A stretch of DNA of 56,981 nt from a virus (Duplodnaviria > Caudoviricetes), in the IMG/VR virus record IMGVR_UViG_3300023184_002488, positions 1 through 56,981 of that record, one strand, 5' to 3'. The first letter of the stretch is position 1. Every line of letters starts with the position of its first letter. The translations under genes and the position numbers were made by a program. Shown here one piece after another: positions 14,367 to 38,834 of the stretch. The notes under the pieces were generated by a model. It saw only the letters and a program-made list of their open reading frames with translations. It did no database searches and was not told where the DNA came from.

Positions 14367-14375
14367 AGTCGTCCT

Positions 14376-18362: not shown

Positions 18363-18363
18363 T

Positions 18364-22910: not shown

Positions 22911-23669
22911 TTATCTACGTTCTATATCATCTTCGTTGCAGTCTATTCCGTATTGTATTTCAACTATTTTGCAAGGCATATCGTAGGGATTAAACAATCT
23001 ATGCCATTGTTCGACGCTGATGTGATGTGTTTGATGTTTAACCAACGGTTTTTGAATTAATTGGTTTGACGGCAATGTATATTGTTCAACCATACAACGC
23101 CCATCAGCGATCATCCATTCTTCTGTGCGATCATAATGTCGTTGCATGGTTAAACTCTGCCCGGATTCTATAGTCAACTCTTTAACTTTAGTGCCAGGTA
23201 CTTCATGCAAGACACGATAGTAGCCCCATGGACGTATAGTCTTAGGTGCTTTCCATTCTTCTAATATCCAACTACTTGAATTCTTTTTATTTTCGCCACC
23301 AACCCCAAACGCAAACTCCACATCTTTGATCGCCATCTCTGGAATGTTATCTTGTGTGCGATCGCCACCATTGGCAAATATGATCTGGCTATTGGGATAT
23401 AGATCTTTAACATTGTGTATGGCTTCTAAGGCAGTGTCATCGTCGTCATTAAACAAGATGACTCCGTCAACAAACTTAAGATTCTCGAGGATAGTAACAC
23501 GTTCCGGACCGGGCATAAACGCACGACCTTTCTTACGTGTTAACCAAGCATCACTGTTGACTCCTACTATCAGAACATTACCTAAAGACTTAGCAGATTT
23601 TAAGTATTCTATATGTCCTGAATGCAATGGGTCAAACCCACCGGTACATAATACTACTCGATTGATCAT
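22911..23669 (-). CDS. Cytidylyl/adenylyltransferase (RfaE/TagD-like) fused to an MPI-type cupin
   Basis: GGFDPLHSGH, VGVNSD, FANGGDR, NSSS; then RPWG, SLTMQRH..RTEEW, IVEIQYG..EDDIER. Confidence 0.9.
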   Translation of the reverse strand: MINRVVLCTGGFDPLHSGHIEYLKSAKSLGNVLIVGVNSDAWLTRKKGRAFMPGPERVTILENLKFVDGVILFNDDDDTALEAIHNVKDLYPNSQIIFANGGDRTQDNIPEMAIKDVEFAFGVGGENKKNSSSWILEEWKAPKTIRPWGYYRVLHEVPGTKVKELTIESGQSLTMQRHYDRTEEWMIADGRCMVEQYTLPSNQLIQKPLVKHQTHHISVEQWHRLFNPYDMPCKIVEIQYGIDCNEDDIERR

Positions 23670-24586: not shown

Positions 24587-25034
24587 TTGATGCGTCCTCC
24601 ATACCTGCTGTTCTCAAGCGTGTAACGTGCCCAAGCATAAAGTTCTTGCTTTCCAGACCTTTCATGATACCTAACCATTTGTTACGTAGCAGGGCTACTT
24701 CATTGATGATGGTCTCAAAGTCGATAACTTCATCTTCACCATCAACATATTTTTCTACGTCACGTGACGTCAATGCTCTTTGATAGTTTTCTAGATATTT
24801 TTGGAAGTGTGTCCTACGTATCTTACGCAGTTTAATATTAAGATAATTGAGCACCGCCTCAACCTCTTGTAGTTGATTAAAGCGACGCTCAGTTATACCG
24901 GGCAGGCCAGCGAGATTTTTCTCTATGTTACCATAGACAGCAACTTCTCGTCGTGCTTCTTCTAATTCCTGTTCATAGTGTTGAATGAAATCAGGTATTG
25001 AATTAAGACTAGCTACTACTTTTGAATACCACAT
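24579..25034 (-). CDS. uvsY: Recombination mediator UvsY
   Basis: Helical protein with LTSRDVEKYVDGE and C-terminal RLRTAG; downstream of recA and gp32. Confidence 0.75.
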   Translation of the reverse strand: MWYSKVVASLNSIPDFIQHYEQELEEARREVAVYGNIEKNLAGLPGITERRFNQLQEVEAVLNYLNIKLRKIRRTHFQKYLENYQRALTSRDVEKYVDGEDEVIDFETIINEVALLRNKWLGIMKGLESKNFMLGHVTRLRTAGMEDASIG

Positions 25035-26269
25035 AATGCCTCATATTTAATTAACCACGGAAACGTTTGTTGCCAATTGGTGTTTCTTCTTCTATCTTTC
25101 TCATTGAGATATACTAATAATTTTGTGATCTCTTCTAAATTCTGTTCTGTTGCTAATATTTGTTTTAAGATTCCGTCCATATATTGATACGCTGATTTAT
25201 CTTCGTCAGTAACCATTTGCATTAATTTTAATATCTCTTCTGCTGTATCTACAAATTCTTCTTTGCCAAAGATCTCTCCTTTGAGATAACTTGGGCCAGG
25301 AGTAACGCCGCTAAACCAATGGCCAATTTTCCTATCTTTTCGCCAAGTAGCAAGTTTATTTAATAATGTTGGCATAGTTTTAATAGTTAGTGCAGATATA
25401 GTCTGATTGATATTTAAATACAACCATTTATTATCTAATAACAATTTAAAATTTTCTTCCCACGGATCAAGTTTAATCCCCCACCTAACATATTCTTGTT
25501 CAGGCCCCCAACAATCAATACTACAGGTAATATCCACTCGTTTAAGTTTTCTTGCTGTTAACAATTTTTTAAATCTATTGATAAATTCTTCAATGCGTTT
25601 TTTTGGAACCATCAAATTTGTAACTATATTAAGTTCACATTCGGGATTGGGATTTTCCTCAATCATATCTAATAATTTATCAAATTCTTTCTGATAAAAT
25701 GGTTCTCCTCCTAGCACATGCAGTCTTTTAACTTTTGGAAAGCCCTCAGGGAACCATTGCCAAAAAAGAGGAACTAAATCTTTAAAATGATCAGGTGACG
25801 GGATAATTTTAATTCCATGACTTTCAAAATTACCAAATTCTCTATTCTCGGTTTCGATTGTTGAACTAAAACTCGCATCGCAATATAAGCACCCTAGATT
25901 ACAAGCGTTATTAAAATATACTTCAACTATACTAGGTGAAGTTAATATAGCCCCCGGATCCATTTCAATCTCTACAGGAGTTAAATTTGGAATAGTCTGT
26001 TGACGCATCCTATCACTAAATCCGCCGGCTTCTTCGATCTCTCGACAGTAACTACAACTTGTTTCAGGCCACTCACCATCTAACATATTTTTTCGATCAG
26101 ATAATTTTAAAGGTGTATTATGGAAATTAAAAAAGTTTTCAGATGTTAGTTCAGATTCTGCAGTTCTATGGCAACTTCTGGTAACTCCGCTATTAAGAAA
26201 AATAGTGCTCCAGGCCCATTTTAATTGGCACGATGTAGCAGTCCTAATAGGGAAATACTTATCAGACAT
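25016..26269 (-). CDS. Radical SAM protein with N-terminal twitch-like Cys cluster
   Basis: CNLGCLYC, GGEPF, VTNL, SIDC; N-terminal CQLKW...SCHR...CSYC. Confidence 0.9.
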   Translation of the reverse strand: MSDKYFPIRTATSCQLKWAWSTIFLNSGVTRSCHRTAESELTSENFFNFHNTPLKLSDRKNMLDGEWPETSCSYCREIEEAGGFSDRMRQQTIPNLTPVEIEMDPGAILTSPSIVEVYFNNACNLGCLYCDASFSSTIETENREFGNFESHGIKIIPSPDHFKDLVPLFWQWFPEGFPKVKRLHVLGGEPFYQKEFDKLLDMIEENPNPECELNIVTNLMVPKKRIEEFINRFKKLLTARKLKRVDITCSIDCWGPEQEYVRWGIKLDPWEENFKLLLDNKWLYLNINQTISALTIKTMPTLLNKLATWRKDRKIGHWFSGVTPGPSYLKGEIFGKEEFVDTAEEILKLMQMVTDEDKSAYQYMDGILKQILATEQNLEEITKLLVYLNEKDRRRNTNWQQTFPWLIKYEALCGIQK

Positions 26270-27602: not shown

Positions 27603-28901
27603 TTAATTTAAAATCCAATCAGACATTTCAGAACTAAAAATGTCTTTAATACTATGCTTGTGTCTTACTGCATATTCTTTATAAAATTGTTTTGCGCTCG
27701 TCCTTAATACATCTACATCAACGTTATTATATATTATACAGTCATCATTTAAGATTGTCACTATATTTTTAATTTGTTCGCTCAGATGAGGTGAAGTTTT
27801 ACTACCTTGAGGATTCAAGGTTATCCAACGATCTAATATTTGACCATAATGTTTTTTCAAATTAGATGGTAATACCTGCGGCGCTTGGAAAATGGGATAT
27901 CGTAATCTAAACATATCCAATTTTATTCTAGTATCATATATTTTATACCAATTTAAAAAATCATTTAATCCGTCTAATGCTAGTAATCCCACTGTGCTTA
28001 ATAATTTTATTTCTACATCAGATCCCAATAATAAGTGTAAATTACTTTCAAATACCTGCCAATCTAACCCAGACCTAACAAATTCTGCACGATCTCCGAT
28101 ATTTTCTATACTTACATTAAATTCGATACTTTTAAATTTTGAGCGATAATTTAATATCTTTTTAATACGACTAGTATCACTCAAATTGGTAACTATGATT
28201 AGATTTAATTGAGAACAGTCTTGCTGACATATCGTATCTAAGAATTTCCAAAAGTTTTGGCTGAACAGCGGCTCGCCGCCCAAACACCTAATATATTCAA
28301 TATCTGACATATTGGCCATTACATAATCTGTAAATTTGTTTAATATAAAATTATATTCTAAATTAGATAATTTATCTTTTTTTCCTAGCCGCTGATAGGT
28401 ATTTCTACTGTCTCCTACTATTCCTTTAAAAGGACCATTAATTTTTAAATCAGTTGCCCAACTTGAACTTGATCCTGCATCACAGTATGAACATGTAAAA
28501 TTACACAAACTGTCAAACGCCACTGTGATAATCTTGGGGACTTGATCGACCGATAGATCTAATGTAGTAAAATCTCTATCGCTATAATTATCATAGCTGG
28601 TCACTATACGTTCAGTAATAGCTTCGGAGTTTTTTTCTTCAACTTGCCAACAATTAGAACACCCTTCGGGTTTTTTACCTTCGAGCATTTGAGATCTTTG
28701 ATTTATTTTTTCTTTAGTATTGTTAATTGTGTGTATATTGTTTGCAACACTATTAAGATCAATTTTGTGTGGCGGCGGAAGATGACAACTGCTAGTTGTT
28801 CCGGATTCTAACCAAAAATCTGCAGATAACCATTTAGCCGCACAAAATGTGGGACTAACCGGATCCAATCTTTCTATCTTGAATTTTTTATAATCGATCA
28901 T
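27603..28901 (-). CDS. Radical SAM protein with N-terminal twitch-like Cys cluster
   Basis: CNFTCSYC, SSSW, GGEPL, VTNL; N-terminal CAAKW...SCH...CSNCW; likely start MIDYKK at 28901. Confidence 0.9.
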   Translation of the reverse strand: MIDYKKFKIERLDPVSPTFCAAKWLSADFWLESGTTSSCHLPPPHKIDLNSVANNIHTINNTKEKINQRSQMLEGKKPEGCSNCWQVEEKNSEAITERIVTSYDNYSDRDFTTLDLSVDQVPKIITVAFDSLCNFTCSYCDAGSSSSWATDLKINGPFKGIVGDSRNTYQRLGKKDKLSNLEYNFILNKFTDYVMANMSDIEYIRCLGGEPLFSQNFWKFLDTICQQDCSQLNLIIVTNLSDTSRIKKILNYRSKFKSIEFNVSIENIGDRAEFVRSGLDWQVFESNLHLLLGSDVEIKLLSTVGLLALDGLNDFLNWYKIYDTRIKLDMFRLRYPIFQAPQVLPSNLKKHYGQILDRWITLNPQGSKTSPHLSEQIKNIVTILNDDCIIYNNVDVDVLRTSAKQFYKEYAVRHKHSIKDIFSSEMSDWILN

Positions 28902-28911
28902 AAAGACAACT

Positions 28912-28933
28912 AGGGCAGAACTAATCCTGCCCT
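28912..28933 (-). terminator. GC-rich hairpin after gp32 (weak terminator or processing stem)
   Basis: AGGGCAG/CTGCCCT 7-bp stem with an imperfect U tail. Confidence 0.5.
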
Positions 28934-28950
28934 GTGTTCTCAAGTATTTA

Positions 28951-30126: not shown

Positions 30127-32538
30127 TTATTTTAAGCCTGCTAATCGTTTCATTTCAGCCATTGGATTTTTTGCTTGCAGTTTGTTATAATGTAGTAAAT
30201 CGTTTTCTGAGTCACCTTTTTTCATGGCCTGCATTTGACTTGGCATGATTTTAAATTTATCTGAGATACTTAATTCTTTTGCGCCCATGCGTTTCATTTT
30301 TACATCTTTATTAACGTGATCATCACCAGCGATAGATTCATTTTTTCTACTGCGTAGGTACGCGATAAAGTCAGCTAGTTTAGCGTCTGGGTGGTTTTCT
30401 TTATATTCTTCGTAGTTTTTAACAAAGTCTGGATGTTTTGGATCGTCTAATTCATATGCATCACGTGTGTCGTAGCCTTCGCCTAATGCCTTGTTAAATG
30501 CTTCGTGTAGGTCACTGTGTTCTTCTTCTGGATAGTCTACGCCTACTTCACGGTATACTTCACGGACCATGATGCTAACGTCGCTTGAGCCTATTTCTTC
30601 CATCGGTGCATGGAATGATGCTACATCAAGTGAAGCATTCATAACACCATCTGGTCCTGCTTTCTTAAGTAATTCGCTGTGTTGATTAATATTGTTTAAG
30701 ATTCTACGAATGATTGCTGATTGTATTGATTCGATATTGCTCAATTCATCTTCATCATTTTCGCTTACTTGATCTTTTGCCATTTTTTCTGTGCGTTTAC
30801 GGGCAACATCGCTCATGTGATGGATTTTGCCTACAGGGTCTTTACCTTTGGCTTTTTCCCAATCACCTTCGTGTTCCCAGCCTGTTAGTTTGCCTGTCTT
30901 AGGATCATATGTTACTTTATCTTTAGCTTCTTCAACTTGGCCATCCATACCGCCATCACCCGAACCGTATGTGTTGCCTTCTAACATTTCATGTGCTACC
31001 ATATTGATAACATCACCGTGCTTATCACTTAATTCATCTAATTCGTCGTCTGACAATGGTGTGCCATCTGTAAATTCTGCTGCTACAGCATAAGCATCAG
31101 CATAGTCTGGGCGGTCCCATGACTCTACACCGTCTAATTCAATACTGCTTAATTCAACTTGTTTACTGTTAATGATCACAGGTGCCGGATCGTATGCCTC
31201 ATCTAGGTCTCCACCTTCACTACCTGTCTCTGCTGGTTCTGGTGTGTCTTCATCACCGATGGCATCTAATATAGCCTGATACATAGTTGGGTTCTTATCC
31301 ATTAGATGATCCATGATCGTATCACGTGCATCTGCTTCAGGATCAACAGCCGCAAGTTCTTCTAGTGCATCAAATAGACTATCATCACCAAAGATATTAT
31401 ACAATACATTAGTTGCGTTCTGTGCATCAACACCTACCGGTAGCTCTTGGCTAAGGATGTCAATCAGTTTATCCTTGTCTTCATCTGTTTCTGGTAGTGC
31501 CCAGGTGCCTTCGCTGATAGCTGTAGCCCAAGTTTCAAATTGTTCTGTAAATTTATTTTCTTTTTTCATATTATAAGCCTTGTGCACCAAAGGTAGCGCA
31601 TCTGTCATTTTATCATTAAACACACGCTTGATGAAGCGTTCTTTCATTTCTTCTAGATTAACATCATCTTCTGGAATATAACCAGTAGATGTAGATGAGA
31701 ATTGTTCTTTGCAACGTGAATAACCTTTCTTACCACTCATGCGTTTGAGAGTATTGTTTAGCAGGCCGTGATATTCAAATGCCGACTCAACCATAGATTG
31801 TGTATCTGCATCTTCAAATGTTCTGCGGCGCACATTGTTTAGGAATGGTTTTAGTTTCGCACACTCTTGTGCCATTTCAGTGATATGTTGTCCAAGCTCA
31901 TCGTGTGGTGTGCCACCAGCACTAACATGACGTGCCATGGCACGAGCACCTGTTAGGCTCTTGAATGGCATCTTAAAGCGTTCACCTTGGTCATTCTCAA
32001 CATAAACACTGTTAATATTACGACTGCGTGCACCTGTCATTTCATCAACGATTGGTTTGTTGTGACGCACTATGATGCGCACTGGACCAAATTTTTCATA
32101 ACTGCTTTTGCTAGTACCATATAATTTGCTTTCAGCTACTACTTCATCTTTATTGTATGTGCTGTCTGCTTTGCTTTGTTGTTGGATATCACGATGTTTT
32201 AATGTTGAGCGTGTTATGTCGCGTGGCTCAAAGCTCAATAGGTTTCTGCGGGCGAATTCACGCAGTTCACGCAAGAAGCTGTACCATTCTTTTTTCTGTT
32301 CTTTATCTAGATCATCGCTGATGTTCTTGCTAAAATAGACTTTCAAGCTGGTCTCATCGATCAAGCTCATGGTAATGTTGCCGTGGTTATCACCATCTAC
32401 AACATAGTCAAAGTTGAAAAAACGTGCTTTTTCTGGATCACTACAGGCCTTGGCTTTATCGTCACCTAGGCTGACATCCTCAAAACGATCACGGATTTTC
32501 TCAAATAGACCTTCTGCAATTTTGTTAATTTCTCTCAT
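30127..32538 (-). CDS. Probable head/virion protein with a modular acidic C-terminal half
   Basis: Late promoter GATAAATA at 32544-32551; follows terminase; multiple [ILVM]-x-E boundaries; ends MKRLAGLK. Confidence 0.55.
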   Translation of the reverse strand: MREINKIAEGLFEKIRDRFEDVSLGDDKAKACSDPEKARFFNFDYVVDGDNHGNITMSLIDETSLKVYFSKNISDDLDKEQKKEWYSFLRELREFARRNLLSFEPRDITRSTLKHRDIQQQSKADSTYNKDEVVAESKLYGTSKSSYEKFGPVRIIVRHNKPIVDEMTGARSRNINSVYVENDQGERFKMPFKSLTGARAMARHVSAGGTPHDELGQHITEMAQECAKLKPFLNNVRRRTFEDADTQSMVESAFEYHGLLNNTLKRMSGKKGYSRCKEQFSSTSTGYIPEDDVNLEEMKERFIKRVFNDKMTDALPLVHKAYNMKKENKFTEQFETWATAISEGTWALPETDEDKDKLIDILSQELPVGVDAQNATNVLYNIFGDDSLFDALEELAAVDPEADARDTIMDHLMDKNPTMYQAILDAIGDEDTPEPAETGSEGGDLDEAYDPAPVIINSKQVELSSIELDGVESWDRPDYADAYAVAAEFTDGTPLSDDELDELSDKHGDVINMVAHEMLEGNTYGSGDGGMDGQVEEAKDKVTYDPKTGKLTGWEHEGDWEKAKGKDPVGKIHHMSDVARKRTEKMAKDQVSENDEDELSNIESIQSAIIRRILNNINQHSELLKKAGPDGVMNASLDVASFHAPMEEIGSSDVSIMVREVYREVGVDYPEEEHSDLHEAFNKALGEGYDTRDAYELDDPKHPDFVKNYEEYKENHPDAKLADFIAYLRSRKNESIAGDDHVNKDVKMKRMGAKELSISDKFKIMPSQMQAMKKGDSENDLLHYNKLQAKNPMAEMKRLAGLK

Positions 32539-32550
32539 AGTAATATTTAT

Positions 32551-34110
32551 CTAGGATATAAAGAAAGGCATAGGCTGGACTATGTCTTCCAGGCTGTCTT
32601 TCATTTTAAGGTCTACTTGGCTGTCAAAGCTCTGCATGATCTGTGCTATACGCACTATCAATACCAGGCTCATTACTAGGTCATCGCTTTCACCTGGTTT
32701 AGCCGCATAGCTAGCACCTGATGCTACGAATGTTTTAAGCTCTGATATCAACGGACGACTATAGATAGTCATGCGACGTGATTCTATTAGATTTTTAAGT
32801 TTGGCACAGGCTGATATCTTGCTTTTATTTGTAGTATTAAAGCCTTTGCGATATCTGCGACCACTGCCCATACTACGTGGTTCGCTGAGGAATATACCTC
32901 GGATGTTTTCTTCACCTATTTCACTGATACTGATCAATGCCGCTTCACCTACACTATTGTTCTCAACGCTGTAGTAAATGCTGGTATTTGGCACGGTTTC
33001 AGCTAGATATTTGGTGATTTCTGTCAGTATTCCCACCTGTTGCTGTATGGGTGTGCGATTATGTTGCCACTCGGCTACCTGTGTAAAGCTAGGCAGTTCA
33101 AACACCTGTATACCCGCGGGATCTCCACCAGTGCCCAGACTAGGGTCCAATGACACAGCATAAGTTCCGTTAGGTTGTGGCTTCTTATACCAACGCACTT
33201 GCCCTTGATTTTCTATAGGATCAACACCTTGCATTTCTACTAGATAACTAGGATTAATCAAGGTTTCGTCCCAGATGATAAATTCGCAGTCCATCTCACG
33301 ACGGAAACGTTCATCACCTAGCTGTGCTCGTTGTTGTATAGCCCATTGTTCATCACGATCCGGATGTTCATTCCAATAGCTACGGAATGATTTAAATCCA
33401 TTGACGCCTAGTTCTGTTGGATTACCGTATTCGTCAAAGCACTTGTTGGCACCTTTCCAAAGAGTAGCGAACTGATCTTCATCGCTGTTAGGTGTTGATG
33501 TAATGATACATTTACCACCAGTGGCTAAGGTTGGGCTGATAGAAGTCCAAAACTCACGACCAATAGTAGGGCGCACAAACGCAAACTCATCTGCGTATAG
33601 TAACGAAATACTCATACCTCGACCAGTGTTTTCTGTTGTAGTAGCACTCACTATGCGACTACCATTGTCAAAGTCAATGCTACCTTTGTTATAACTCACA
33701 GCACCAGCACGTATGTAGTCCGGCACGCTTTCATAAGCGTAGCGTATACGTTGCATGATTTCCTGTGAGCCTGTGTATTTGTGTGCGGCAATTAGGATAG
33801 TGCTGTCAGGCACGAACATAGCATACCAGAGTAGATATCCAGCGGCTGATGTTGATTTACCTGTTTGCCGAGGCATCAGTGAGATGCTGAATCGGTAAGC
33901 ATGGTATGAATGTATCAGGCGTTTCTGATACTCAAATGGCGCATACAACATACGTCCTTTAACAGGATGTTGTATATAGAAAAAGTTACTCATGAAGTAT
34001 TCTGGACCCGTGTCGGGGTCAGCACACTTGGCGAATTCTTTTATCTGATCTTCAGTGAAAGATTCTTTTTGGTGAGCTTTTTTAACTATTACATCGAAGG
34101 AGTTTGCCAT
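32551..34110 (-). CDS. terL: Terminase large subunit, T4 gp17-like
   Basis: YQK adenine motif, PRQTGKST, LLYADEFAFV, ITSTPN, SLDPSLGTGGD, VENN, DDLVMS. Confidence 0.95.
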   Translation of the reverse strand: MANSFDVIVKKAHQKESFTEDQIKEFAKCADPDTGPEYFMSNFFYIQHPVKGRMLYAPFEYQKRLIHSYHAYRFSISLMPRQTGKSTSAAGYLLWYAMFVPDSTILIAAHKYTGSQEIMQRIRYAYESVPDYIRAGAVSYNKGSIDFDNGSRIVSATTTENTGRGMSISLLYADEFAFVRPTIGREFWTSISPTLATGGKCIITSTPNSDEDQFATLWKGANKCFDEYGNPTELGVNGFKSFRSYWNEHPDRDEQWAIQQRAQLGDERFRREMDCEFIIWDETLINPSYLVEMQGVDPIENQGQVRWYKKPQPNGTYAVSLDPSLGTGGDPAGIQVFELPSFTQVAEWQHNRTPIQQQVGILTEITKYLAETVPNTSIYYSVENNSVGEAALISISEIGEENIRGIFLSEPRSMGSGRRYRKGFNTTNKSKISACAKLKNLIESRRMTIYSRPLISELKTFVASGASYAAKPGESDDLVMSLVLIVRIAQIMQSFDSQVDLKMKDSLEDIVQPMPFFIS

Positions 34111-34146: not shown

Positions 34147-34377
34147 TTACCAGGGTTTTTCGCCGGTCATGAATGGTAAACTAAACCATAATTTAAACCA
34201 TTCGGGTGTTCCTGGTTTAATATCGTTTTCTTTTTGGTAGTTGATTTTTTCTGCAGCTGTGATGCTGGGATTGCTGCCTTCTAATCTAGTAGGAGTATCA
34301 TAGCCTGTATATTCAGCTAGTCTACCTAGATTGCCGTTTAACCCAGCAAGTTGTTTGATTTGATCTAGATCATCCAT
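34147..34377 (-). CDS. Small hypothetical (probable head) protein
   Basis: DQIKQLAGL N-terminus; IKPGTPEWFKLWF. Confidence 0.7.
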   Translation of the reverse strand: MDDLDQIKQLAGLNGNLGRLAEYTGYDTPTRLEGSNPSITAAEKINYQKENDIKPGTPEWFKLWFSLPFMTGEKPW

Positions 34378-34379
34378 GA

Positions 34380-34760
34380 TTATGATTTACGTTTGATTGG
34401 GCCTGTGCGACCAACTGGACTTACTTTATGCACATCATCTAATTCTACACTGCGATGATGAGGAATGCTATGTTTGGATTTACTTGATACGGTATTAAAA
34501 GCTGATTGCATCATCATGTGCTCGGCTTCTGTATAAGGGCGTGCCACGTTATGTTTTTCAACCCAACTAGCTTCATCCATATCAACAGCTTTGCTACTTG
34601 TGCCGTCTGCCATACCTGCGGCCATCATTACACGATTAAGATTATAAGCACGGTCAACTCCTTCATCACGGAATAACCATTCACCTGTGCTGGCATGTTT
34701 TGCTTGTTTATTAATTTTGCCTTGGCGTTTGCCTTCTGTGACTATTTCATTGATTTTCAT
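34380..34760 (-). CDS. Probable head-internal protein
   Basis: Likely start MKINEIVTE-G (capsid-targeting-like). Confidence 0.6.
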   Translation of the reverse strand: MKINEIVTEGKRQGKINKQAKHASTGEWLFRDEGVDRAYNLNRVMMAAGMADGTSSKAVDMDEASWVEKHNVARPYTEAEHMMMQSAFNTVSSKSKHSIPHHRSVELDDVHKVSPVGRTGPIKRKS

Positions 34761-35070
34761 AATCGTCTTCGTCTTCGTCACGATCATTTAAGATACTGCG
34801 TAGGCTAGGAATACTACCTGGTTGGCGACGATCACTTAACCAACTCTCTAAGTGTGGCTCTAAGTAACTACGGATTTGTCCACTGAATGGACCTGGAACT
34901 TCACGACCATAACGTGCTAGATCGTTGGCGAGACTAACGGCATGTCTTAATGTTTTATCAAGCTCATCTAACATATCGCTGATCTGTGCTAAGTCTACTG
35001 CTTCTTCTTGGATAGGTTGCCCTGCTTCAATAGCATCCATCATCTCAACAAATTCTTTTAGCTCTTTCAT
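34747..35070 (-). CDS. Probable head-internal protein
   Basis: MKELKEFVE N-terminus; IQE-E site. Confidence 0.55.
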   Translation of the reverse strand: MKELKEFVEMMDAIEAGQPIQEEAVDLAQISDMLDELDKTLRHAVSLANDLARYGREVPGPFSGQIRSYLEPHLESWLSDRRQPGSIPSLRSILNDRDEDEDDYENQ

Positions 35071-35071
35071 A

Positions 35072-38000
35072 TTATGCCTTGACGTCGTTGATCAATGATT
35101 GATAATCGTTCCATAGCATATTTTGGATAGCTTCCTTAACTGCCATTGGATTATCACCTGGATATTCTTTACGATATTGTTTTTTAGCACGATTTAGATC
35201 ACCACCACTTGGAATAGATGCATCTAAGCCTGCTGTTTCTTCACGTGGTGAGTTTGTATATTCTACGTCACGTTCTTTTGGTCCATCTTCAGCGACTGTT
35301 TCACAGCCACATGGTGAACTACCGCAAGCACCACATGCTTCTTCAGCTTGTGTAGCTTGGATAGCGATCACTGGCATGCCTGATAGTTTACGAATTAGGT
35401 TAACCGCATCCTCTTCACCACTGGCTGACACGTTGATGTTGATGTCTTCTTTAACAGTATATTTCTTGCCATCAACTTCAAAGTCTTTAGCACCTGAGGC
35501 TTTAGCAGCCGCTAGTGCGCCTGAGAACTCGTTACCTTCTCCCATATCCATATTTTCTTCAGCTACTTTTTTGCTTGGCGGATTATTTCTTGCTTGAGCC
35601 GCTTTTAATGCTTTTTCTTTTGAGTAAGTTTGTTGAACTTTATGTCCTATGTATCCACCAGCGGCGGCACCAATTGGACCTCCTGCAAGGGCTCCAAGTG
35701 TTCCTCCAATAGCTGCTCCAGTAATACCTTCATCGCATTTGCATGGTGCGCAATCACATGTTGAACATGTTTCACCTTCACCAACTATCACAGCTGATGG
35801 CATAGAACCGCATTCAGCTAGATCTACATGACATGCAGCTAAGAACATTTCACGTTTGAAACGTGGATTTTGTTCCTTAAAGAAATCAGCATAGTGTAGA
35901 GCGTGTTCTTTACGTTTTTCTAGATCTTCAATGTCTTTGATAGTATCAGCACATTGACGGAAATCTTTACGTGTTGCGGCTTCTTCTAAAGTATGTGTCA
36001 ATGGACTTGCTGAATCACTTGGAGCCATTGCTGCAAGATTTTCATTGCACTTACATGGAGCGCAATCACATGCTTCACAAGTCTTAACAGGTAATCCTGC
36101 AAGTTTAGCGATCTCATCTAGCTCTTGTTGAACATTGACCACTGGAGTTAATACTGCTTCATCCATAGCTTCTTGTTCTGCTAGCTCTTGAGAATAGTGA
36201 TCCCATGCTTCTTTTGTTGTATAGATTGGGTGATTGCGGATCGCATCTTTGCCCTCTTTAACTGTTACTTTAGTCATTTTACCTTTACTATTTTTAATAG
36301 TATCTCCAAAATTAGTAGCCTCTTCTACTTGGCCTTTGTTATGTGCTTTCCATGTTGTAGCGTAAGCGATCGCTTTATCTTTACCAGATAAATGTCCGTC
36401 TTTGCTTAAAGATTTTTTAATACCCTTAACCATACGTTCAGCTTTAGCGCCTGGGGGTGCTACTTCGTCCATTTTATCATGTTTAGCACGGATCATAGCC
36501 ATTTTCTCTTTGCTTGCGCCTTCACGACCTGCTTTCTGTAGAGCTTGCATACCTTCTTTACCATATTTCTTCTTACCTAGGTATGCTTGTAGTCCGCTTT
36601 CATCTACTTCGTCTTTGTCTTCATCATCTTTTTGTGCGGCACCACCGTAGGCACGACCTTTAACGAAACGGCTTGATGACTTATAGTCATCATCTTTCTC
36701 AGCACGCTCATCTTCTTGCTTGTCTTTAAGAGCTTGTAGGCGTTTGCGTTTAGCAACAGCATCTTTGTCTATATCAGCCGGCTCGTGTTTTTTAGCATCT
36801 TTAGCCGCTGATTTCATTGGCTCATCAGTGTCGCCGTCTTTGTCAAGATCTAAGAAGTCTGGCTTAGCCGCTTCCTTTAGTTTTTTATATTCTACAGATC
36901 TAACTGCTTCAATGATGCTAGTTGGTTTTGTCATGGTGTTTTTTCCTAAATTTTGTTCTGCTAATGGTAAATCTTCTTGTGTTCCAGCCGGAACATTTGT
37001 ATTCACTCTCGCAGTAATTCCTGGTTTTGCACCTTGTACTGCTTTTAGTGCTTTTTCTTTAACTTTTGGATATGCTGATAAGAATTCTTTAAACTTTCTT
37101 CCTCTGAAGAATATTTCTAAATCTTCTCTGCTAGACAACACAGTGTCAATAGTTGGATCACCACCTGCACTAAAATCAATTCCATTGGCTTTCCAAGTTG
37201 CTAATGCAGCATACATTTGTGCATCTGTCATCCTAAATGGTCTTACGCCAAAGTCAAGATCTATATACGGTAATTTATTTTTCCAAGCTCTAGCAAGTAG
37301 GCCCCAGTTATATTTGCCAGCTTCAGGTGTTCCTTCTGGGTATCTAGATTCTTCTGTTAGGCTTTCTGCCGCTATATCTAAATCATCAATATCTGTGTAT
37401 TTCTTACGAGAATGTTTTTTAGGTTCTTCTTTTGCTTTACCTGCATTTTTATTGATGCTAATAACATCAGCACCTTGACCGGCTTGTTTATCTTGTTTAG
37501 CATCTGCTTTTACTTCTGGCTCAGGCTTTTTATCTGCTGCCGGGACATTATTCCAAACGCTGGTATCTTGCGAAGCCTCAGGAGGTTCAGGAGCTGTAGT
37601 TGGTTGCTCTGGAGCTATTGCGCCTTTCTCTACTTCTGCTCTGGCCGTATCAGAATCTTTTTCAATCTGTTGTGCAGCCTGTGCGGCCTTTTGATCTTGC
37701 GGTGTGACCTGACCTGATGCTACTTTAGCATTTAGGGCACGGAATCTTTGATCAGTGTTGTCGATGACTTTGCGTAGTGCATCTTGGTTGGCTTGTGTTT
37801 TAGCCAACATACCTTGTGTTTGTTCAATCTTTTGACGATCGGCTTGCTCGGCTTGTTCTGCACGCTCTAGTTCTTTTTCTTGTTTATTAACGTAAGACAC
37901 AATAGCTTCAAAATCATTTTTAGCCTGTGGTTTAGCAAATCTTGCTTTGGTCGCTAGTTTAACCACATCAGGATCTGCGCTTCTAGTTAGGTCATCTGCA

Positions 38001-38200
38001 GGAACTTCTACACTGGGTTCTTTACGTTTGGCCTTGGCTTCTTTAAAGCCCATAAAACGTTCTTCAAGTTGGGTAACCGCCGACATGATATCACCTCGAG
38101 GATCTACACTTTCGTAGATGGGCTCAGCGGTTGAGACTGGGTTGGCTTTAGGTGTTAGACCGTCAAGTTTTCCCAAGATATCATAGATGTTGTTGCTCAT
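35072..38200 (-). CDS. Large modular charged protein (prohead core/internal polyprotein candidate)
   Basis: 1042 aa of short unrelated modules separated by [ILVMF]-x-E sites; includes coiled coil, EF-hand-like loop, Cys repeats and a glycine zipper. Confidence 0.6.
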   Translation of the reverse strand: MSNNIYDILGKLDGLTPKANPVSTAEPIYESVDPRGDIMSAVTQLEERFMGFKEAKAKRKEPSVEVPADDLTRSADPDVVKLATKARFAKPQAKNDFEAIVSYVNKQEKELERAEQAEQADRQKIEQTQGMLAKTQANQDALRKVIDNTDQRFRALNAKVASGQVTPQDQKAAQAAQQIEKDSDTARAEVEKGAIAPEQPTTAPEPPEASQDTSVWNNVPAADKKPEPEVKADAKQDKQAGQGADVISINKNAGKAKEEPKKHSRKKYTDIDDLDIAAESLTEESRYPEGTPEAGKYNWGLLARAWKNKLPYIDLDFGVRPFRMTDAQMYAALATWKANGIDFSAGGDPTIDTVLSSREDLEIFFRGRKFKEFLSAYPKVKEKALKAVQGAKPGITARVNTNVPAGTQEDLPLAEQNLGKNTMTKPTSIIEAVRSVEYKKLKEAAKPDFLDLDKDGDTDEPMKSAAKDAKKHEPADIDKDAVAKRKRLQALKDKQEDERAEKDDDYKSSSRFVKGRAYGGAAQKDDEDKDEVDESGLQAYLGKKKYGKEGMQALQKAGREGASKEKMAMIRAKHDKMDEVAPPGAKAERMVKGIKKSLSKDGHLSGKDKAIAYATTWKAHNKGQVEEATNFGDTIKNSKGKMTKVTVKEGKDAIRNHPIYTTKEAWDHYSQELAEQEAMDEAVLTPVVNVQQELDEIAKLAGLPVKTCEACDCAPCKCNENLAAMAPSDSASPLTHTLEEAATRKDFRQCADTIKDIEDLEKRKEHALHYADFFKEQNPRFKREMFLAACHVDLAECGSMPSAVIVGEGETCSTCDCAPCKCDEGITGAAIGGTLGALAGGPIGAAAGGYIGHKVQQTYSKEKALKAAQARNNPPSKKVAEENMDMGEGNEFSGALAAAKASGAKDFEVDGKKYTVKEDININVSASGEEDAVNLIRKLSGMPVIAIQATQAEEACGACGSSPCGCETVAEDGPKERDVEYTNSPREETAGLDASIPSGGDLNRAKKQYRKEYPGDNPMAVKEAIQNMLWNDYQSLINDVKA
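35303..36079 (-). repeat. Three 11-aa Cys-rich repeats (C-x2-C-x4-C-x-C)
   Basis: CEACDCAPCKC 36047-36079, CSTCDCAPCKC 35735-35767, CGACGSSPCGC 35303-35335. Confidence 0.85.
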
Positions 38201-38201
38201 G

Positions 38202-38834
38202 CTATCTGCCTTTTACTGGACTTGGTATTTTGTTTTTTGTGCTACCCATTGGGCTTAGATCACCTGTTGGTACACTATTAGTAGTCTTACCGTATGCTGG
38301 ATCTTTGTCGCCACCAACGGTAGTATCATTACCAGCCACGTCAAACTTGGCTGTTTTGTTTAATTCTTTAAGGATAGTTTCTGCACCAGCATAGGCTTTA
38401 CTTGCAGCTTTTTGATCTGCACTGGCTTCTGGAAGCGGTTTGGTTAATACATCTTCACCTTGTTTAAATTCTTTGACATCGTTACCTTCTAAATTCCAAC
38501 GACGCTGTTCTTCTGGATGATTAGCGGGAACTACTACAACGTTAGCTAATGGGCAACCTAAACGTTCAGCCACGATAGCACGTAATTTTGCATCATTTAC
38601 TGGATATTTTAACACAGCATCCATTAAAAATATTTCGCAATTTGGAATGCTTGGAAAGTCAATATCATTGGCTTTGATTGGTAAGCGTTTTGGAGCACCT
38701 ACGCTTTCTACTGCGTATTCTTCTAGACCAACTTTAAGTCCGTCTAGTTTATCCTTAGGATCACAGTTAGCGATCTTGATGCGGAATTCATAAGTTTTTT
38801 GGACTTCTGAAAGATATTTTAAAAAGTTCTTCAT
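38202..38834 (-). CDS. Probable head protein
   Basis: MKNFLKYLSE-V resembles the T4 IP targeting peptide MKTYQEFIAE; late promoter GATAAATA at 38856-38863; AGGA RBS. Confidence 0.6.
   Translation of the reverse strand: MKNFLKYLSEVQKTYEFRIKIANCDPKDKLDGLKVGLEEYAVESVGAPKRLPIKANDIDFPSIPNCEIFLMDAVLKYPVNDAKLRAIVAERLGCPLANVVVVPANHPEEQRRWNLEGNDVKEFKQGEDVLTKPLPEASADQKAASKAYAGAETILKELNKTAKFDVAGNDTTVGGDKDPAYGKTTNSVPTGDLSPMGSTKNKIPSPVKGR

What the first reader, a model, noticed from the sequence alone, without database searches (positions are those of the whole stretch)
35072..38200. Candidate capsid polyprotein releasing many micro-proteins
Seen: the 1042-aa ORF is a chain of unrelated 20-140 aa modules whose borders repeatedly fall at hydrophobic-x-Glu: IYE-S, FKE-A, LTE-E, LAE-Q, IIE-A, LKE-A, VDE-S, MDE-V, VEE-A, VKE-G, MDE-A, LEE-A, LAE-C, VGE-G, VAE-E, MGE-G, VKE-D, VAE-D, VKE-A. 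Several modules look like compact basic mini-domains (SGLQAYLGKKKYG..., VAPPGAKAERMVK...AYATTWK, ATRKDFR...NPRFKREMFLAAC, GNEFSGALAAAK...FEVDGKKY). Known: T4 gp21 cuts after (I/L)-x-E and phiKZ gp175 after (S/A/G)-x-E. Inference: one gene acts as an exchangeable cassette array of peptides that are packaged, cut apart in the head and possibly injected as effectors. This is my best candidate for an undescribed system. The protein is Glu-rich, so some sites will be chance.
Basis: partly seen in the sequence, partly recalled or inferred. Interest (0 to 1): 0.8.

Follow-up and report, generated by a model that had tools for sequence, protein, structure and literature searches.

The report
Cassette-built phage head cargo protein
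A giant-phage gene next to the DNA-packaging enzyme encodes a protein made of small, swappable segments. Each segment ends in the short signal that T4-type head proteases cut, so the protein probably delivers a changeable set of mini-proteins into the virus head, but cutting has not been shown.

Summary
The 1042-aa ORF and all 19 listed hydrophobic-x-Glu sites are real. In the single sequence the site count is barely above chance (25 vs 17.4±3.6; TerL scores alike). The signal is comparative.

- **Family.** It is large and metagenomic: 663 proteins, and 349 IMG/VR stretches. The N- and C-termini are conserved. Internal cassettes are gained, lost, duplicated and reordered.
- **Junction motif.** In 171 unrelated upstream contexts, cassettes start after [ILVMF]-x-E in 140. 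P1 is Glu in 159 and Asp in 0.
- **Blind test.** Of 28 homology-breakpoint clusters, 18 lie within 5 residues of such a site (null 6.6±2.1).
- **Interiors.** The motif is depleted inside cassettes (41 vs about 95 expected).
- **Protease.** Relatives carry a T4-like head module with an S77 (gp21-type) protease, in 4 of 5 large records and in PA5oct. T4 gp21 cuts after L/I-x-E.
- **Other carriers.** One cassette, with the same preceding site, sits in small cyanophage-type proteins whose 10-aa leader resembles the T4 internal-protein targeting sequence.

Best reading (0.55): a head-internal polyprotein cut at cassette borders.

Against: the window holds no protease or capsid gene. PA5oct's positional analogue ran at about full length in virions. 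Structure and complex predictions could not be run.

It is a new variant of the T4 internal-protein theme.

The parts
35072..38200 (-). Whole ORF, 1042 aa: modular head-cargo candidate ('polyprotein')
   Evidence: ORF. No Pfam family. Family of 663 proteins. Syntenic slot between a 210-aa virion-protein homologue and TerL, both here and in G005.
38111..38200 (-). Leader, res 1-30: conserved MSNNIYDILGKLxGL ... IYE|S; candidate targeting propeptide
   Evidence: Nearly invariant I5 Y6 D7 I8 L9, Y29 E30. The next module is preceded by [ILVMF]xE in 138 of 149 hits. Distant members keep this N-terminus. PA5oct gp281 starts with a similar motif.
37352..38110 (-). Res 31-283: conserved part with invariant E98-A99, then Q/A/E/K-rich and P/A/Q-rich variable stretch
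   Evidence: Alignment A1. The D-x-E|A site at residue 98 has Glu in 99 of 99 hits but no hydrophobic P3 (0 of 99).
36956..37351 (-). Res 284-415: optional larger module X1
   Evidence: Present in 66 of 134 proteins with both ends. No Pfam hit. Its start is not at a site (3 of 39).
36599..36871 (-). Res 444-534: 'PDF' cassette with invariant D-x-D-x-D-G acidic loop (PDFLDLDKDGD) and a K/R-rich helix-like stretch
   Evidence: Invariant columns 443-470. Preceded by [ILVMF]xE in 169 of 186 hits after at least 9 kinds of neighbour. phrog_24078 at E 6.9e-5, function unknown. Calcium binding is my inference from the motif only.
36464..36598 (-). Res 535-579: basic cassette 'SGLQ' (net +5)
   Evidence: Absent from P0012, P0045 and P0053 exactly between two sites. 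Preceded by [ILVMF]xE in 83 of 85 hits. Present in 65 of 134. Charge.
36320..36463 (-). Res 580-627: basic cassette 'VAPP' (net +5), shared with small cyanophage-type proteins
   Evidence: Preceded by [ILVMF]xE in 148 of 152 hits, after SGLQ 45, PDF 24, VAPP 7, other 74. tblastn found it in 6 Synechococcus phage records. phrog_30733 at E 2.3e-8.
36254..36319 (-). Res 628-649: short basic cassette 'ATNF' (net +3)
   Evidence: Preceded by [ILVMF]xE in 93 of 96 hits. No interior site, against 4.0 expected.
36158..36253 (-). Res 650-681: acidic cassette 'GKDA'; an alternative, longer cassette replaces it in many relatives
   Evidence: Preceded by [ILVMF]xE in 102 of 102 hits. The alternative cassette is visible in A1 columns 1340-1440. 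Its own end (MDE, residue 681) is not conserved (1 of 24).
35981..36157 (-). Res 682-740: helix-Gly 'LAGL' motif (LDEIAKLAGL, invariant) + CxxCxCxPCxC + spacer ending LEE|A
   Evidence: Invariant E693-L703. The motif occurs only 4 times in the six-frame window. The same motif ends the scaffold-like protein in 5 of 5 related genomes.
35813..35980 (-). Res 741-796: cassette 'ATRK'
   Evidence: Preceded by [ILVMF]xE in 133 of 139 hits. phrog_34257 at E 6.9e-4.
35537..35812 (-). Res 797-888: second Cys motif and a rare insert with a glycine-zipper-like hydrophobic stretch (res ~823-855), ending MGE|G
   Evidence: The insert has no aligned row in A1. P0214 matches at 90%. Gly-zipper Pfam hits are all below their cut-offs (E 0.0023-0.72).
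35447..35536 (-). Res 889-918: 'GNEF' cassette, start of the conserved C-terminal core
   Evidence: Glu at P1 in 214 of 217 hits, [ILVMF]xE in 182 of 217. Present in 130 of 134. One interior site against 14.4 expected.
35288..35446 (-). Res 919-971: 'DINI' cassette with second LAGL-type motif (LIRKLSGM, invariant) and third Cys motif
   Evidence: Preceded by [ILVMF]xE in 179 of 181 hits. Invariant N934-M942.
35075..35287 (-). Res 972-1042: conserved C-terminal tail (…DLNRAKKQY…GDNPMA…VKA)
   Evidence: Invariant or nearly invariant columns 976-1042. Kept in distant members. The sites before it are weaker: 72 of 179 and 83 of 159.
34747..35070 (-). Neighbour, 107 aa, leader MKELKEFVE|…: candidate small head cargo with T4-IP-like leader
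   Evidence: Of 43 related loci, 17 have an ORF with this leader. T4 IPII and IPIII start MKTYQEFIAE.
34380..34760 (-). Neighbour, 126 aa from the inner ATG, leader MKINEIVTE|G: conserved 9-aa leader on variable cargo
   Evidence: Of 43 related loci, 30 have this leader, followed by 26 distinct 14-mers.
34147..34377 (-). Neighbour, 76 aa, N-terminal LAGL motif (MDDLDQIKQLAGL)
   Evidence: Of 43 related loci, 34 have such an ORF.
32551..34110 (-). Large terminase (context)
   Evidence: Terminase_6N at E 6.8e-18. 54.6% identical to PA5oct TerL.
30127..32538 (-). 803-aa virion-protein homologue ending …MKRLAGLK (context; same motif)
   Evidence: phrog_13484 at E 9e-18. Motif. The Phosso counterpart ends RLRKLAGI.
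38202..38834 (-). 210-aa homologue of PA5oct virion protein gp282 (context)
   Evidence: BLASTP E 2e-13. The PA5oct protein was found by ESI-MS/MS.

Best explanation
The ORF encodes a head-internal cargo polyprotein of a T4-like-headed jumbo myovirus (PA5oct/Atu_ph07 relatives). A fixed frame holds a variable string of 20-130-aa cassettes. The frame is a 30-aa N-terminal leader plus a roughly 150-aa C-terminal core. Every well-defined cassette is preceded by [V/L/M/I]-x-Glu.

**Proposed mechanism.**
1. The protein is made late and built into the prohead core. Entry uses its leader and the helix-Gly ('LAGL') motifs, which it shares with the C-terminus of the scaffold protein.
2. The gp21-type (S77) prohead protease cuts after the junction Glu residues. 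This frees the cassettes as separate mini-proteins.
3. Basic cassettes stay with the DNA. Some may leave the head with the DNA at infection.

**Shown.** The cassette structure, the junction motif, depletion of the motif inside cassettes, the conserved gene position, and an S77 protease with a T4-like head module in relatives.

**Inferred.** Packaging, cutting, and the fate and function of the pieces.
For: **Family and gene position.**
- 663 proteins at E<=1e-3 among 8000 scored candidates.
- 1707 representative proteins at E<=1e-3, 101 of them at <=1e-30.
- 349 of 430 IMG/VR stretches encode a relative.
- The order is the same here and in the complete 329-kb record G005: tube, head closure, 166/167 aa, 210/198 aa, target, small ORFs, TerL.

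**Cassette behaviour.**
- 229 distinct architectures in 253 proteins.
- Of 134 proteins with both ends, 32 have order inversions and 48 have duplications. Cassette presence ranges from 65 to 130 of 134.

**Junction motif.**
- [ILVMF]xE directly before the cassette start: N2 138/149, PDF 169/186, SGLQ 83/85, VAPP 148/152, ATNF 93/96, GKDA 102/102, ATRK 133/139, GNEF 182/217, DINI 179/181. The background is 2.8% per position.
- In 171 de-duplicated contexts with an unknown upstream neighbour: [ILVMF]xE 140, Glu at P1 159, Asp 0. P3 is V 62, L 29, M 26, I 18.

**Test made without prior knowledge of the sites.**
- 18 of 28 homology-breakpoint clusters lie within 5 residues of a site. The null is 6.6±2.1, and 0 of 20,000 random placements reach 18.
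- Controls are not enriched: [H]xK 4, [H]xD 1, [SAG]xE 6, [H]xA 6.

**Depletion inside cassettes.** Summed over 8 cassettes, 41 sites against about 95 expected.

**Site density.** 2.4 per 100 aa here. The G005 scaffold-like protein has 7.1 and T4 gp22 has 8.6.

**Protease and head module.**
- PF03420 is found above its cut-off in 4 of 5 large related records and in PA5oct.
- G005 has portal, an acidic core-like protein, S77 protease, a scaffold-like protein and a Gp23-family capsid protein in T4 order.
- Its capsid protein has 4 of its 5 [ILVMF]xE sites in the first 42 of 391 residues. These are conserved in 5 of 5 genomes.

**T4 rule.** Cutting after L/I-X-E, with Asp at P1 blocking processing (PMC9026906: section 10 read, passages of section 9).

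**The same cassette in another carrier.** In small proteins, 118 of 120 have the leader pattern MK[ST]F.. and 98 of 120 have their first [ILVMF]xE ending at residue 9. T4 IPII and IPIII start MKTYQEFIAE. In 27 of the 27 that match a module-start pattern (of 120), [ILV]xE sits directly before the cassette.

**Virion link.** PA5oct's gene in the same slot is a virion protein by MS.
Against: - No protease, scaffold or capsid gene lies in this 57-kb record (16% complete). Their presence is inferred from relatives.
- No cleavage data exist for any member.
- PA5oct's positional analogue is not demonstrably homologous: BLASTP best E 0.16, hhalign probability 3.9%.
- In PA5oct virions that analogue (EST35_0203, 55.9 kDa) was found in gel band 6, together with proteins predicted at 47-58 kDa. 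That is roughly full length, with 10 peptides and 26% coverage.
- PA5oct's capsid protein had 97.47% coverage in band 7. Its acidic core-like protein and its protease ran at about full size. Processing in that phage therefore looks limited.
- The site count in the single sequence is barely above chance and matches TerL.
- Overall motif retention in A1 (0.66) equals that of [H]xD (0.69) and [H]xK (0.63).
- At tolerances of 0 and 2 residues the breakpoint test gave only 7.3% vs 2.4% and 21.9% vs 12.0%. I chose the 5-residue tolerance after seeing that blocks include P4-P1.
- I set the cassette borders for the HMMs at the query's own sites.
- Some borders lack the motif: X1 3/39, LAGL 11/69, DGPK 72/179, CT 83/159.
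- P3 is mostly Val here, not Leu/Ile as in T4.
- No structure model was obtained.
Confidence: 0.55

Rival explanations
1. The protein is a packaged internal or ejection protein that stays essentially whole. It enters the head, and at most the 30-aa leader is removed. The junction [VLMI]-x-Glu would then be a structural linker feature of helical mini-domains, or redundant sites that are hardly used.
For: - PA5oct's gene in the same slot ran at about full-length size in virions, and PA5oct shows little sign of processing.
- T4 itself leaves many L/I-x-E unused; accessibility decides (my knowledge).
- One conserved 'site' (LDE at 694-696) is part of the helix-Gly motif itself.
- Overall motif retention is no higher than for [H]xD or [H]xK.
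Against: - A structural linker would tolerate Asp. Asp is at P1 in 0 of 171 contexts and 7 of 1155 starts, although it makes up 8.1% of residues.
- The motif is depleted inside cassettes.
- The same site precedes the same cassette in unrelated small proteins.
- PA5oct gp281 is not a demonstrable homologue.
Confidence: 0.2
2. The protein is a sacrificial prohead-core or scaffold accessory. It helps build or size the large head, is chopped by the protease like T4 gp22/gp67/gp68, and its pieces leave before DNA enters. The cassettes would be filler with no later role.
For: - T4 core proteins are cut into several fragments that mostly exit the head (PMC9026906 and PMC7411985, passages).
- The protein shares the LAGL-type motif with the scaffold C-terminus.
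- Its overall charge is acidic.
- Cassette number varies, as a spacer might.
Against: - Site density is about a third of the scaffold's: 2.4 against 7.1 and 8.6 per 100 aa.
- Sites are avoided inside cassettes.
- Cassettes are strongly conserved, with dozens of invariant columns. One is shared at 45-57% identity with cyanophage proteins.
- The PA5oct slot-mate is retained in virions.
Confidence: 0.15
3. The protein is not a head component. It is a modular protein of another function, such as a tail or DNA-injection accessory or an intracellular factor. Its junction motif would reflect how the cassettes recombine or fold.
For: - No direct evidence of packaging for any family member.
- No Pfam, PDB or named Atlas relative.
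Against: - The slot among head-completion and packaging genes is conserved.
- Neighbours on both sides are homologues of virion proteins.
- The motif is shared with the scaffold C-terminus.
- Three degenerate codons cannot guide recombination (inference).
Confidence: 0.07

Closest known systems
T4 internal proteins IPI/IPII/IPIII and Alt, with their capsid targeting sequence (CTS), processed by gp21
   Same: - Short N-terminal leader ending in hydrophobic-x-Glu.
- A gp21-type (S77) protease in the lineage.
- Variable cargo behind a conserved leader.
- The neighbouring small ORFs and the cyanophage-type carriers of the VAPP cassette have leaders much like T4's MKTYQEFIAE.
   Different: - Many cargos are fused in one ORF, separated by internal sites. 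T4 has one cargo per gene.
- The target's own leader (MSNNIYDILGKL…IYE) does not resemble the T4 CTS.
- No sequence homology to the T4 IPs.
- Packaging, cutting and ejection are untested.
T4 prohead core proteins gp22, gp67, gp68
   Same: Substrates cut at several L/I-x-E sites into fragments. Acidic. Part of the prohead core (PMC9026906, passages).
   Different: - Much lower site density, with the sites at cassette borders only.
- Not next to the protease gene.
- The clade has its own scaffold-like and acidic core-like genes.
- The cassettes are conserved.
phiKZ / 201phi2-1 / SPN3US inner-body and ejection proteins cut by gp175 / gp245
   Same: Jumbo-phage head proteins processed after Glu at a 3-residue motif. 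Propeptides are thought to target proteins into the prohead (PMC9026906 and PMC7411985, passages).
   Different: - Those use S/A-x-E, which is not enriched here.
- They lose long N-terminal propeptides rather than being cut into a string of cassettes.
- No homology was found.
Polyvalent proteins of phages and conjugative elements (Iyer et al. 2017, PMC5512222)
   Same: Many unrelated, shuffled modules in one virion-associated polypeptide. They are thought to be delivered with the DNA and released by proteolysis (passages).
   Different: - Those carry 2-15 recognisable, mostly enzymatic domains and often their own peptidase.
- Here no known domain passes a cut-off in the query.
- The modules are 20-130 aa.
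- The protease would act in trans.

Membership tests
Substrate of a T4 gp21-type (Peptidase_S77) prohead protease | The phage encodes an S77 protease | tested here: inconclusive
   Absent from this 57-kb fragment. Present above the Pfam cut-off in 4 of 5 large related records that encode a family member, and in PA5oct. Absent from 4 of 4 small related fragments.
Substrate of a T4 gp21-type (Peptidase_S77) prohead protease | Hydrophobic-x-Glu motifs at the points of cutting (L/I-X-E in T4) | tested here: met
   Motif at cassette borders in 140 of 171 independent contexts. Glu 159, Asp 0. P3 is V>L>M>I, broader than in T4.
Substrate of a T4 gp21-type (Peptidase_S77) prohead protease | Observed cleavage products | not testable with these tools
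   No proteomic data exist for any member. The PA5oct slot-mate ran at about full size.
T4-type internal protein with capsid targeting sequence | 10-19-aa N-terminal propeptide ending in a processing site | tested here: inconclusive
   A conserved 30-aa leader ends in I/V/L-Y-E (138 of 149). It is longer than the T4 CTS and unlike it in sequence. The neighbouring ORFs fit better.
T4-type internal protein with capsid targeting sequence | Found inside mature heads and ejected with the DNA | not testable with these tools
   Only indirect evidence: PA5oct gp281 in the same slot is a virion protein.
Polyvalent proteins (Iyer et al. 2017) | Several recognisable conflict-related domains in one polypeptide | tested here: not met
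   No Pfam family at E<=0.01 in the query. Its pieces give only sub-threshold glycine-zipper hits. DUF3008 passes its cut-off in one relative of the 17 proteins scanned in that call (15 family members plus 2 others): P0215, 30.3 bits against 24.
Polyvalent proteins (Iyer et al. 2017) | Embedded peptidase domain (common, not universal) | tested here: not met
   No peptidase family was found in the query or in 15 relatives.
Phage scaffolding / prohead core protein (gp22-like) | Homology or adjacency to the protease-scaffold-capsid gene block | tested here: not met
   G005 has its own scaffold-like gene beside the protease. The target orthologue lies elsewhere, beside TerL. No PHROG scaffold hit.

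The most novel reading that the evidence does not exclude
Environmental jumbo phages and T4-like cyanophages may share a pool of mini-protein cassettes. Each would be delimited by a prohead-protease site, and the phages would string them together in one gene or attach them singly to targeting leaders. The head protease would then turn one gene product into a changeable set of a dozen or more separate 20-130-aa peptides. These include basic, metal-binding-like and membrane-active-like types. They would travel in the capsid and enter the host with the DNA as first-minute effectors. The helix-Gly 'LAGL' motif, shared with the scaffold C-terminus, would be the docking tag. As recalled and not tested, it would work much as cargo-loading peptides do in encapsulins.
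Probability: 0.25. Interest if true: 0.85.

Novelty: new variant of a known kind. Interest (0 to 1): 0.65.

Why it matters
**What it would show.** If the junctions are cut, one gene yields a programmable set of packaged mini-proteins. Phages could then diversify what they carry into the cell by shuffling cassettes rather than evolving new genes. This extends the T4 internal-protein and targeting-sequence idea to a widespread, uncultured group of giant phages.

**Why it is testable.** The cut points are predicted residue by residue: E30, E443, E534, E579, E627, E649, E740, E888, E918, E971 and E1023.

**Other uses.** It points to small conserved peptides of unknown function as candidate early effectors or DNA-condensing agents. 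The junction rule could also be used to annotate head cargo in metagenomic phage genomes.

Tried and rejected
**Remote jobs that gave nothing.**
- Structure prediction of the whole protein with A1. It was polled up to and reported as interrupted. There is therefore no model and no fold search, and whether the junctions lie in exposed linkers stays open.
- Complex prediction of the G005 capsid protein (A2) with the LAGL segment of the G005 orthologue. No result exists.

**Searches that found nothing useful.**
- Pfam on the protein and its pieces.
- PDB sequence search with A1: only E 0.49.
- Protein Atlas: unnamed viral clusters at 0.76-0.77.
- Earlier findings of this scan: nothing.
- S77 in the window's own record: none, as the record is a fragment.

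**Analyses that were uninformative or weak.**
- Motif retention in A1 did not differ from the controls.
- Gapped BLAST breakpoints were too few.
- An insertion-only list had a bug in its site flag and was not used.
- Breakpoints at 0 and 2 residues tolerance gave only about 2-3-fold enrichment.
- Single-linkage clustering of 700 unassigned segments collapsed into one group of 501.

**PA5oct and other cultured phages.**
- PA5oct gp281 as a family member: rejected.
- PA5oct supplement 1 held only PhageTerm text. Gene names in the gpNNN form are not used in supplement 2.
- The Vibrio phage 2.275.O record starts at TerL, so its upstream gene could not be seen.

**Ideas rejected.**
- phiKZ-type S/A/G-x-E sites: not enriched.
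- A LAGL-type motif in the T4 core proteins: not found.

Full report
**What is there.** The window is a whole IMG/VR record of 56,981 bases. It is estimated to be 16% of a genome. It belongs to a jumbo myovirus.
- Its large terminase is 54.6% identical to that of Pseudomonas phage PA5oct. It is about 52-55% identical to those of Phosso and Atu_ph07.
- The gene order is sheath, two tube proteins, a 234-aa ORF, head closure, a 166-aa ORF, a 210-aa ORF, the target, three small ORFs, TerL and an 803-aa ORF. This matches PA5oct apart from the target and the small ORFs.
- The 210-aa protein is homologous to PA5oct virion protein gp282 (E 2e-13).
- The target (35072-38200, minus strand, 1042 aa) has no Pfam family. 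It has only three weak PHROG hits of unknown function.
- By tblastn against 50,697 phage records it matches six Synechococcus phage records, over residues ~567-656 only.

**The observation on this sequence alone.**
- Against 5000 shuffles, [ILVMF]-x-E occurs 25 times against 17.4±3.6 (p 0.029).
- [IL]-x-E occurs 10 times against 8.9.
- [SAG]-x-E occurs 18 times against 23.3.
- TerL and the 803-aa protein give similar z-scores (1.88 and 2.24), and the sheath gives none.
The count proves little.

**The family.**
- A word-indexed search gave 663 proteins at E<=1e-3 among 8000 scored candidates. Most are about 1000 aa, on contigs up to 333 kb.
- An exhaustive search of 50%-identity representatives gave 1707 proteins, 101 of them at E<=1e-30. 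Many match only one or two segments of the query, at quite different positions.
- In IMG/VR, 349 of 430 candidate stretches encode a relative. Relatives of 500-1200 aa match the query's first and last residues but skip parts of the middle.
- An alignment of 26 members (A1) shows blocks that are present or absent as units.
  - The 535-579 block is missing from P0012, P0045 and P0053.
  - The 580-627 block is missing from P0004.
  - In P0009 and P0056 that block is replaced by a different block, which scores weakly for DUF3008.

**Cassette analysis.** I cut the query at its conserved sites into 15 modules. I built an HMM for each and scanned 255 family proteins.
- Architectures are highly variable: 229 distinct ones in 253 proteins.
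- Among 134 proteins that have both ends, 32 show an order inversion relative to the query and 48 show a duplicated module.
- Module presence ranges from 65 of 134 (SGLQ) to 130 of 134 (GNEF).
- Distant members keep the N-terminal MSNNIY(D/N)IL.KL and the C-terminal tail but order the cassettes differently. One example is N1-VAPP-SGLQ-…; another is N1-SGLQ-GNEF-PDF-VAPP-LAGL-PDF-….

**The junction motif.** The three residues before a module start are [ILVMF]-x-E in:
- N2 138/149, PDF 169/186, SGLQ 83/85, VAPP 148/152, ATNF 93/96;
- GKDA 102/102, ATRK 133/139, GNEF 182/217 (Glu 214/217), DINI 179/181.

The motif is not found at N3 (0/99, though Glu is 99/99), X1 (3/39), LAGL (11/69), DGPK (72/179) or CT (83/159). 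The background is 2.8% per position.

The upstream neighbour differs from case to case. VAPP follows SGLQ 45 times, PDF 24 times, VAPP 7 times and something unassigned 74 times.

I then took only the starts with an unassigned neighbour. I clustered their upstream 12-mers so that representatives differ at more than 6 of 12 positions. This left 171 contexts.
- [ILVMF]-x-E is present in 140 of them.
- P1 is Glu in 159 and Asp in none. The family is 8.1% Asp and 9.8% Glu.
- P3 is V 62, L 29, M 26, I 18, F 6.
- P2 and P4-P6 carry little information (less than 0.55 bits, against 2.82 at P1 and 1.56 at P3).

Because I had placed the borders at the query's own sites, I ran a blind test.
- Ungapped BLAST of the query against the 255 proteins was chained. 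Discontinuities of 15 aa or more were collected, giving 1082 points in 28 clusters of at least 10 points.
- Of the 28 clusters, 18 lie within 5 residues of an [ILVMF]-x-E Glu. Random placement gives 6.6±2.1, and none of 20,000 trials reaches 18.
- The controls [H]xK (4), [H]xD (1), [SAG]xE (6) and [H]xA (6) are at or below their nulls.
- With tolerances of 0 and 2 residues the enrichment was only 7.3% against 2.4% and 21.9% against 12.0%.
- I chose the wider tolerance after seeing that aligned blocks usually begin at P4, so it is partly post hoc.

**Sites are avoided inside cassettes.** In non-redundant copies of eight cassettes, interior [ILVMF]-x-E counts are below shuffled expectation in seven.

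| Cassette | Observed | Expected |
|---|---|---|
| PDF | 6 | 17.2 |
| SGLQ | 1 | 3.0 |
| VAPP | 0 | 2.0 |
| ATNF | 0 | 4.0 |
| ATRK | 11 | 21.1 |
| GNEF | 1 | 14.4 |
| DINI | 13 | 29.1 |
| GKDA (exception) | 9 | 4.4 |

These copies are related, so the counts are not independent. The query's overall density is 2.4 per 100 aa. The G005 scaffold-like protein has 7.1 and T4 gp22 has 8.6. That pattern fits cutting into defined pieces better than wholesale degradation.

**The protease context.** The window has no protease.
- Of five large IMG/VR records that encode a family member, four have a Peptidase_S77 match above the Pfam cut-off (E 4e-28 to 4e-30). One of these is the single complete record, G005 (329,321 bp with terminal repeats). 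The fifth record is 56% complete.
- PA5oct has one too (E 7e-25). Four small fragments have none.
- In G005 the order is portal, a 279-aa very acidic protein, the protease, a 365-aa scaffold-like protein and a 391-aa capsid protein of the Gp23 family. This is the T4 order.
- The capsid protein has five [ILVMF]-x-E sites, four of them in the first 42 residues. These N-terminal sites are conserved in all five genomes compared.
- According to a review of T4 head assembly (PMC9026906), gp21 cuts after Glu in L/I-X-E. Internal proteins carry 10-19-aa targeting propeptides. Asp at the P1 position of the IPIII leader blocks processing. The core proteins are cut into fragments that mostly leave the head. 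I read section 10 in full and passages of sections 7, 9 and 14.

**A second carrier of the same cassette.**
- The Synechococcus phage S-H9-1 protein that matched the query is 179 aa.
- Its family has 1864 hits at E<=1e-5 among 2044 candidates.
- Of the best 120, I count 118 that start with a leader of the type MK[ST]F[KR]Q[FL]REE. In 98 of the 120 the first [ILVMF]-x-E ends at residue 9.
- T4 IPII and IPIII begin MKTYQEFIAE, and IPI begins MKTFKEF….
- In all 27 of the 120 that match a pattern for the cassette start, [ILV]-x-E lies directly before it, for example PDLIKE|KAPEGAKY. The other 93 did not match my pattern and were not scored.

**The neighbours look like cargo genes too.** Of 43 distinct related loci with at least 1.5 kb downstream of the target orthologue:
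- 30 have an ORF with the 9-aa leader MK[ILVF]x[EDQ][ILVF][ILVS]xE (commonest MKINEI[IV]xE). It is followed by 26 different 14-mers.
- 17 have an ORF starting MKELREF[IV]E.
- 34 have a ~75-aa ORF starting with the LAGL-type motif.

The window has all three. A conserved leader on variable cargo is the T4 internal-protein pattern.

**The LAGL-type motif.** The pattern [ILVMF]..[ILVM].[KRQ][LM][ASDN]G[LIVM] occurs four times in the six-frame translation of the whole window. All four lie in the target (twice), the 76-aa ORF and the last residues of the 803-aa protein.
- The scaffold-like protein ends in (K/R)RLAG(L/I)K in five of five genomes, including PA5oct. In four of the five, [ILVMF]-x-E lies two residues upstream.
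- Phosso's counterpart of the 803-aa protein ends RLRKLAGI, and its gene upstream of TerL has LHRMLDLAGV near the N-terminus.
- PA5oct gp281 starts MFNINDILRLAGV and has a second copy.
- T4 core proteins lack the motif.
- I read it as a prohead docking motif. This is inference, and the job that would have tested binding to the capsid protein was never accepted by the queue.

**Evidence against.**
- PA5oct gp281 occupies the same slot, but it is not a demonstrable homologue: BLASTP best E 0.16, hhalign probability 3.9% over 29 columns.
- In the PA5oct virion proteome (PMC7318152, supplement 2, sheet S5, read) it is EST35_0203. I matched it through the terminator listed at 128817, which is the gene's end.
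- It has 10 peptides and 25.95% coverage. It lies in gel band 6 with proteins predicted at 47-58 kDa, so it ran at about full size.
- The capsid protein had 97.47% coverage in band 7. The acidic core-like protein and the protease were found at about their predicted sizes. The scaffold-like protein is absent from the list.
- PA5oct therefore shows scaffold removal but little other processing.
- This lowers my confidence that every junction is cut. It does not explain away the junction motif in the target family.

**What I conclude.** The cassette array and its border motif are real and far beyond chance. Cutting by the S77 protease is the simplest explanation, for four reasons.
- P1 is strictly Glu and never Asp.
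- P3 is hydrophobic.
- The motif is depleted inside cassettes.
- The same site-plus-cassette unit recurs in leader-bearing small proteins of T4-like phages.

Packaging, cutting and the fate of the pieces remain inferred.

**Prior description.** I found none.
- The only family names are PHROGs of unknown function.
- A full-text search for 'prohead protease', 'polyprotein', 'jumbo phage' and 'internal proteins' (at least 3 of 4 terms) returned three papers. By their titles and abstracts, none concerns this protein.
- The polyvalent-protein paper (PMC5512222, passages) describes larger, enzyme-bearing proteins with their own peptidases.
- The jumbo-phage comparative review (PMC7824862, passages) mentions neither a prohead protease nor internal head proteins.
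- Supplements other than the two PA5oct files were not examined.

Noticed in passing
window 30127-30162 (-), 34338-34377 (-), 35389-35418 (-), 36106-36135 (-); L093-L096, L012: A helix-Gly motif (…I/L-x-x-I/L-K/R-K/R/Q-L-A-G-L/I) marks several head-locus proteins. It also forms the extreme C-terminus, (K/R)RLAG(L/I)K, of the scaffold-like protein in 5 of 5 related genomes, including PA5oct. It may be a docking tag for the prohead. T4 core proteins lack it.
   Followed up: partly
window 34147-35070 (-); loci L013-L092: Three small genes lie between the target and TerL. They carry conserved short leaders (MKELKEFVE…, MKINEIVTE…, MDDLDQIKQLAGL…) followed by variable sequence. Of 43 related loci, 30, 17 and 34 show them. 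They look like T4-style internal-protein genes with targeting leaders.
   Followed up: partly
window residues 707-717, 811-822, 956-966 of the ORF (about nt 36050-36082, 35735-35770, 35303-35335): A five-cysteine motif, CxxCxCxPCxC, occurs three times, twice just after a LAGL-type motif. It is optional among relatives. PA5oct gp281 has a looser C…C…C stretch right after its N-terminal motif. Metal binding is a guess: a relative scores E 0.018 for a metallothionein family, below the cut-off.
   Followed up: no
window about nt 35636-35734 (-), residues ~823-855: A rare insert has a glycine-zipper-like hydrophobic stretch. Pfam Gly-zipper and class II bacteriocin hits are all below their cut-offs. 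It is shared at 90% identity with one other 998-aa protein. It could be a membrane-active cassette.
   Followed up: partly
L097 12245-13420 (G005 capsid protein) and L100-L103: The Gp23-family capsid protein has 4 of its 5 hydrophobic-x-Glu sites in the first 42 of 391 residues, conserved in 5 genomes. This fits a short multi-site propeptide. Yet the PA5oct capsid protein had 97% peptide coverage in virions.
   Followed up: partly
L047 5473-7422 (G005): The terminase gene of G005 reads through only its first ~290 residues. It is then interrupted (…REMDCCNGDTIL…) and followed by a 343-aa ORF. This looks like an intein or a homing-endonuclease insertion. PA5oct also has Hef-like homing endonucleases in this region.
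   Followed up: no
window 25016-26269 (-), 27603-28943 (-), 17313-19218 (+), 12703-15407 (-), 22911-23669 (-): The window also carries two radical-SAM-like genes flanking UvsX, two taurine-dioxygenase-like genes, two nucleotide-sugar epimerase-like genes and a heptose kinase/adenylyltransferase-like gene (PHROG hits). These may be DNA or surface-sugar modification functions.
   Followed up: no
P0215 residues 672-725; P0009 647-701; P0391, P0456: DUF3008 (PF11450) occurs as one of the exchangeable cassettes in some family members, passing its cut-off in P0215. It is also annotated in some of the small leader-bearing proteins. This suggests the unexplained Pfam family may be phage head cargo.
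   Followed up: partly
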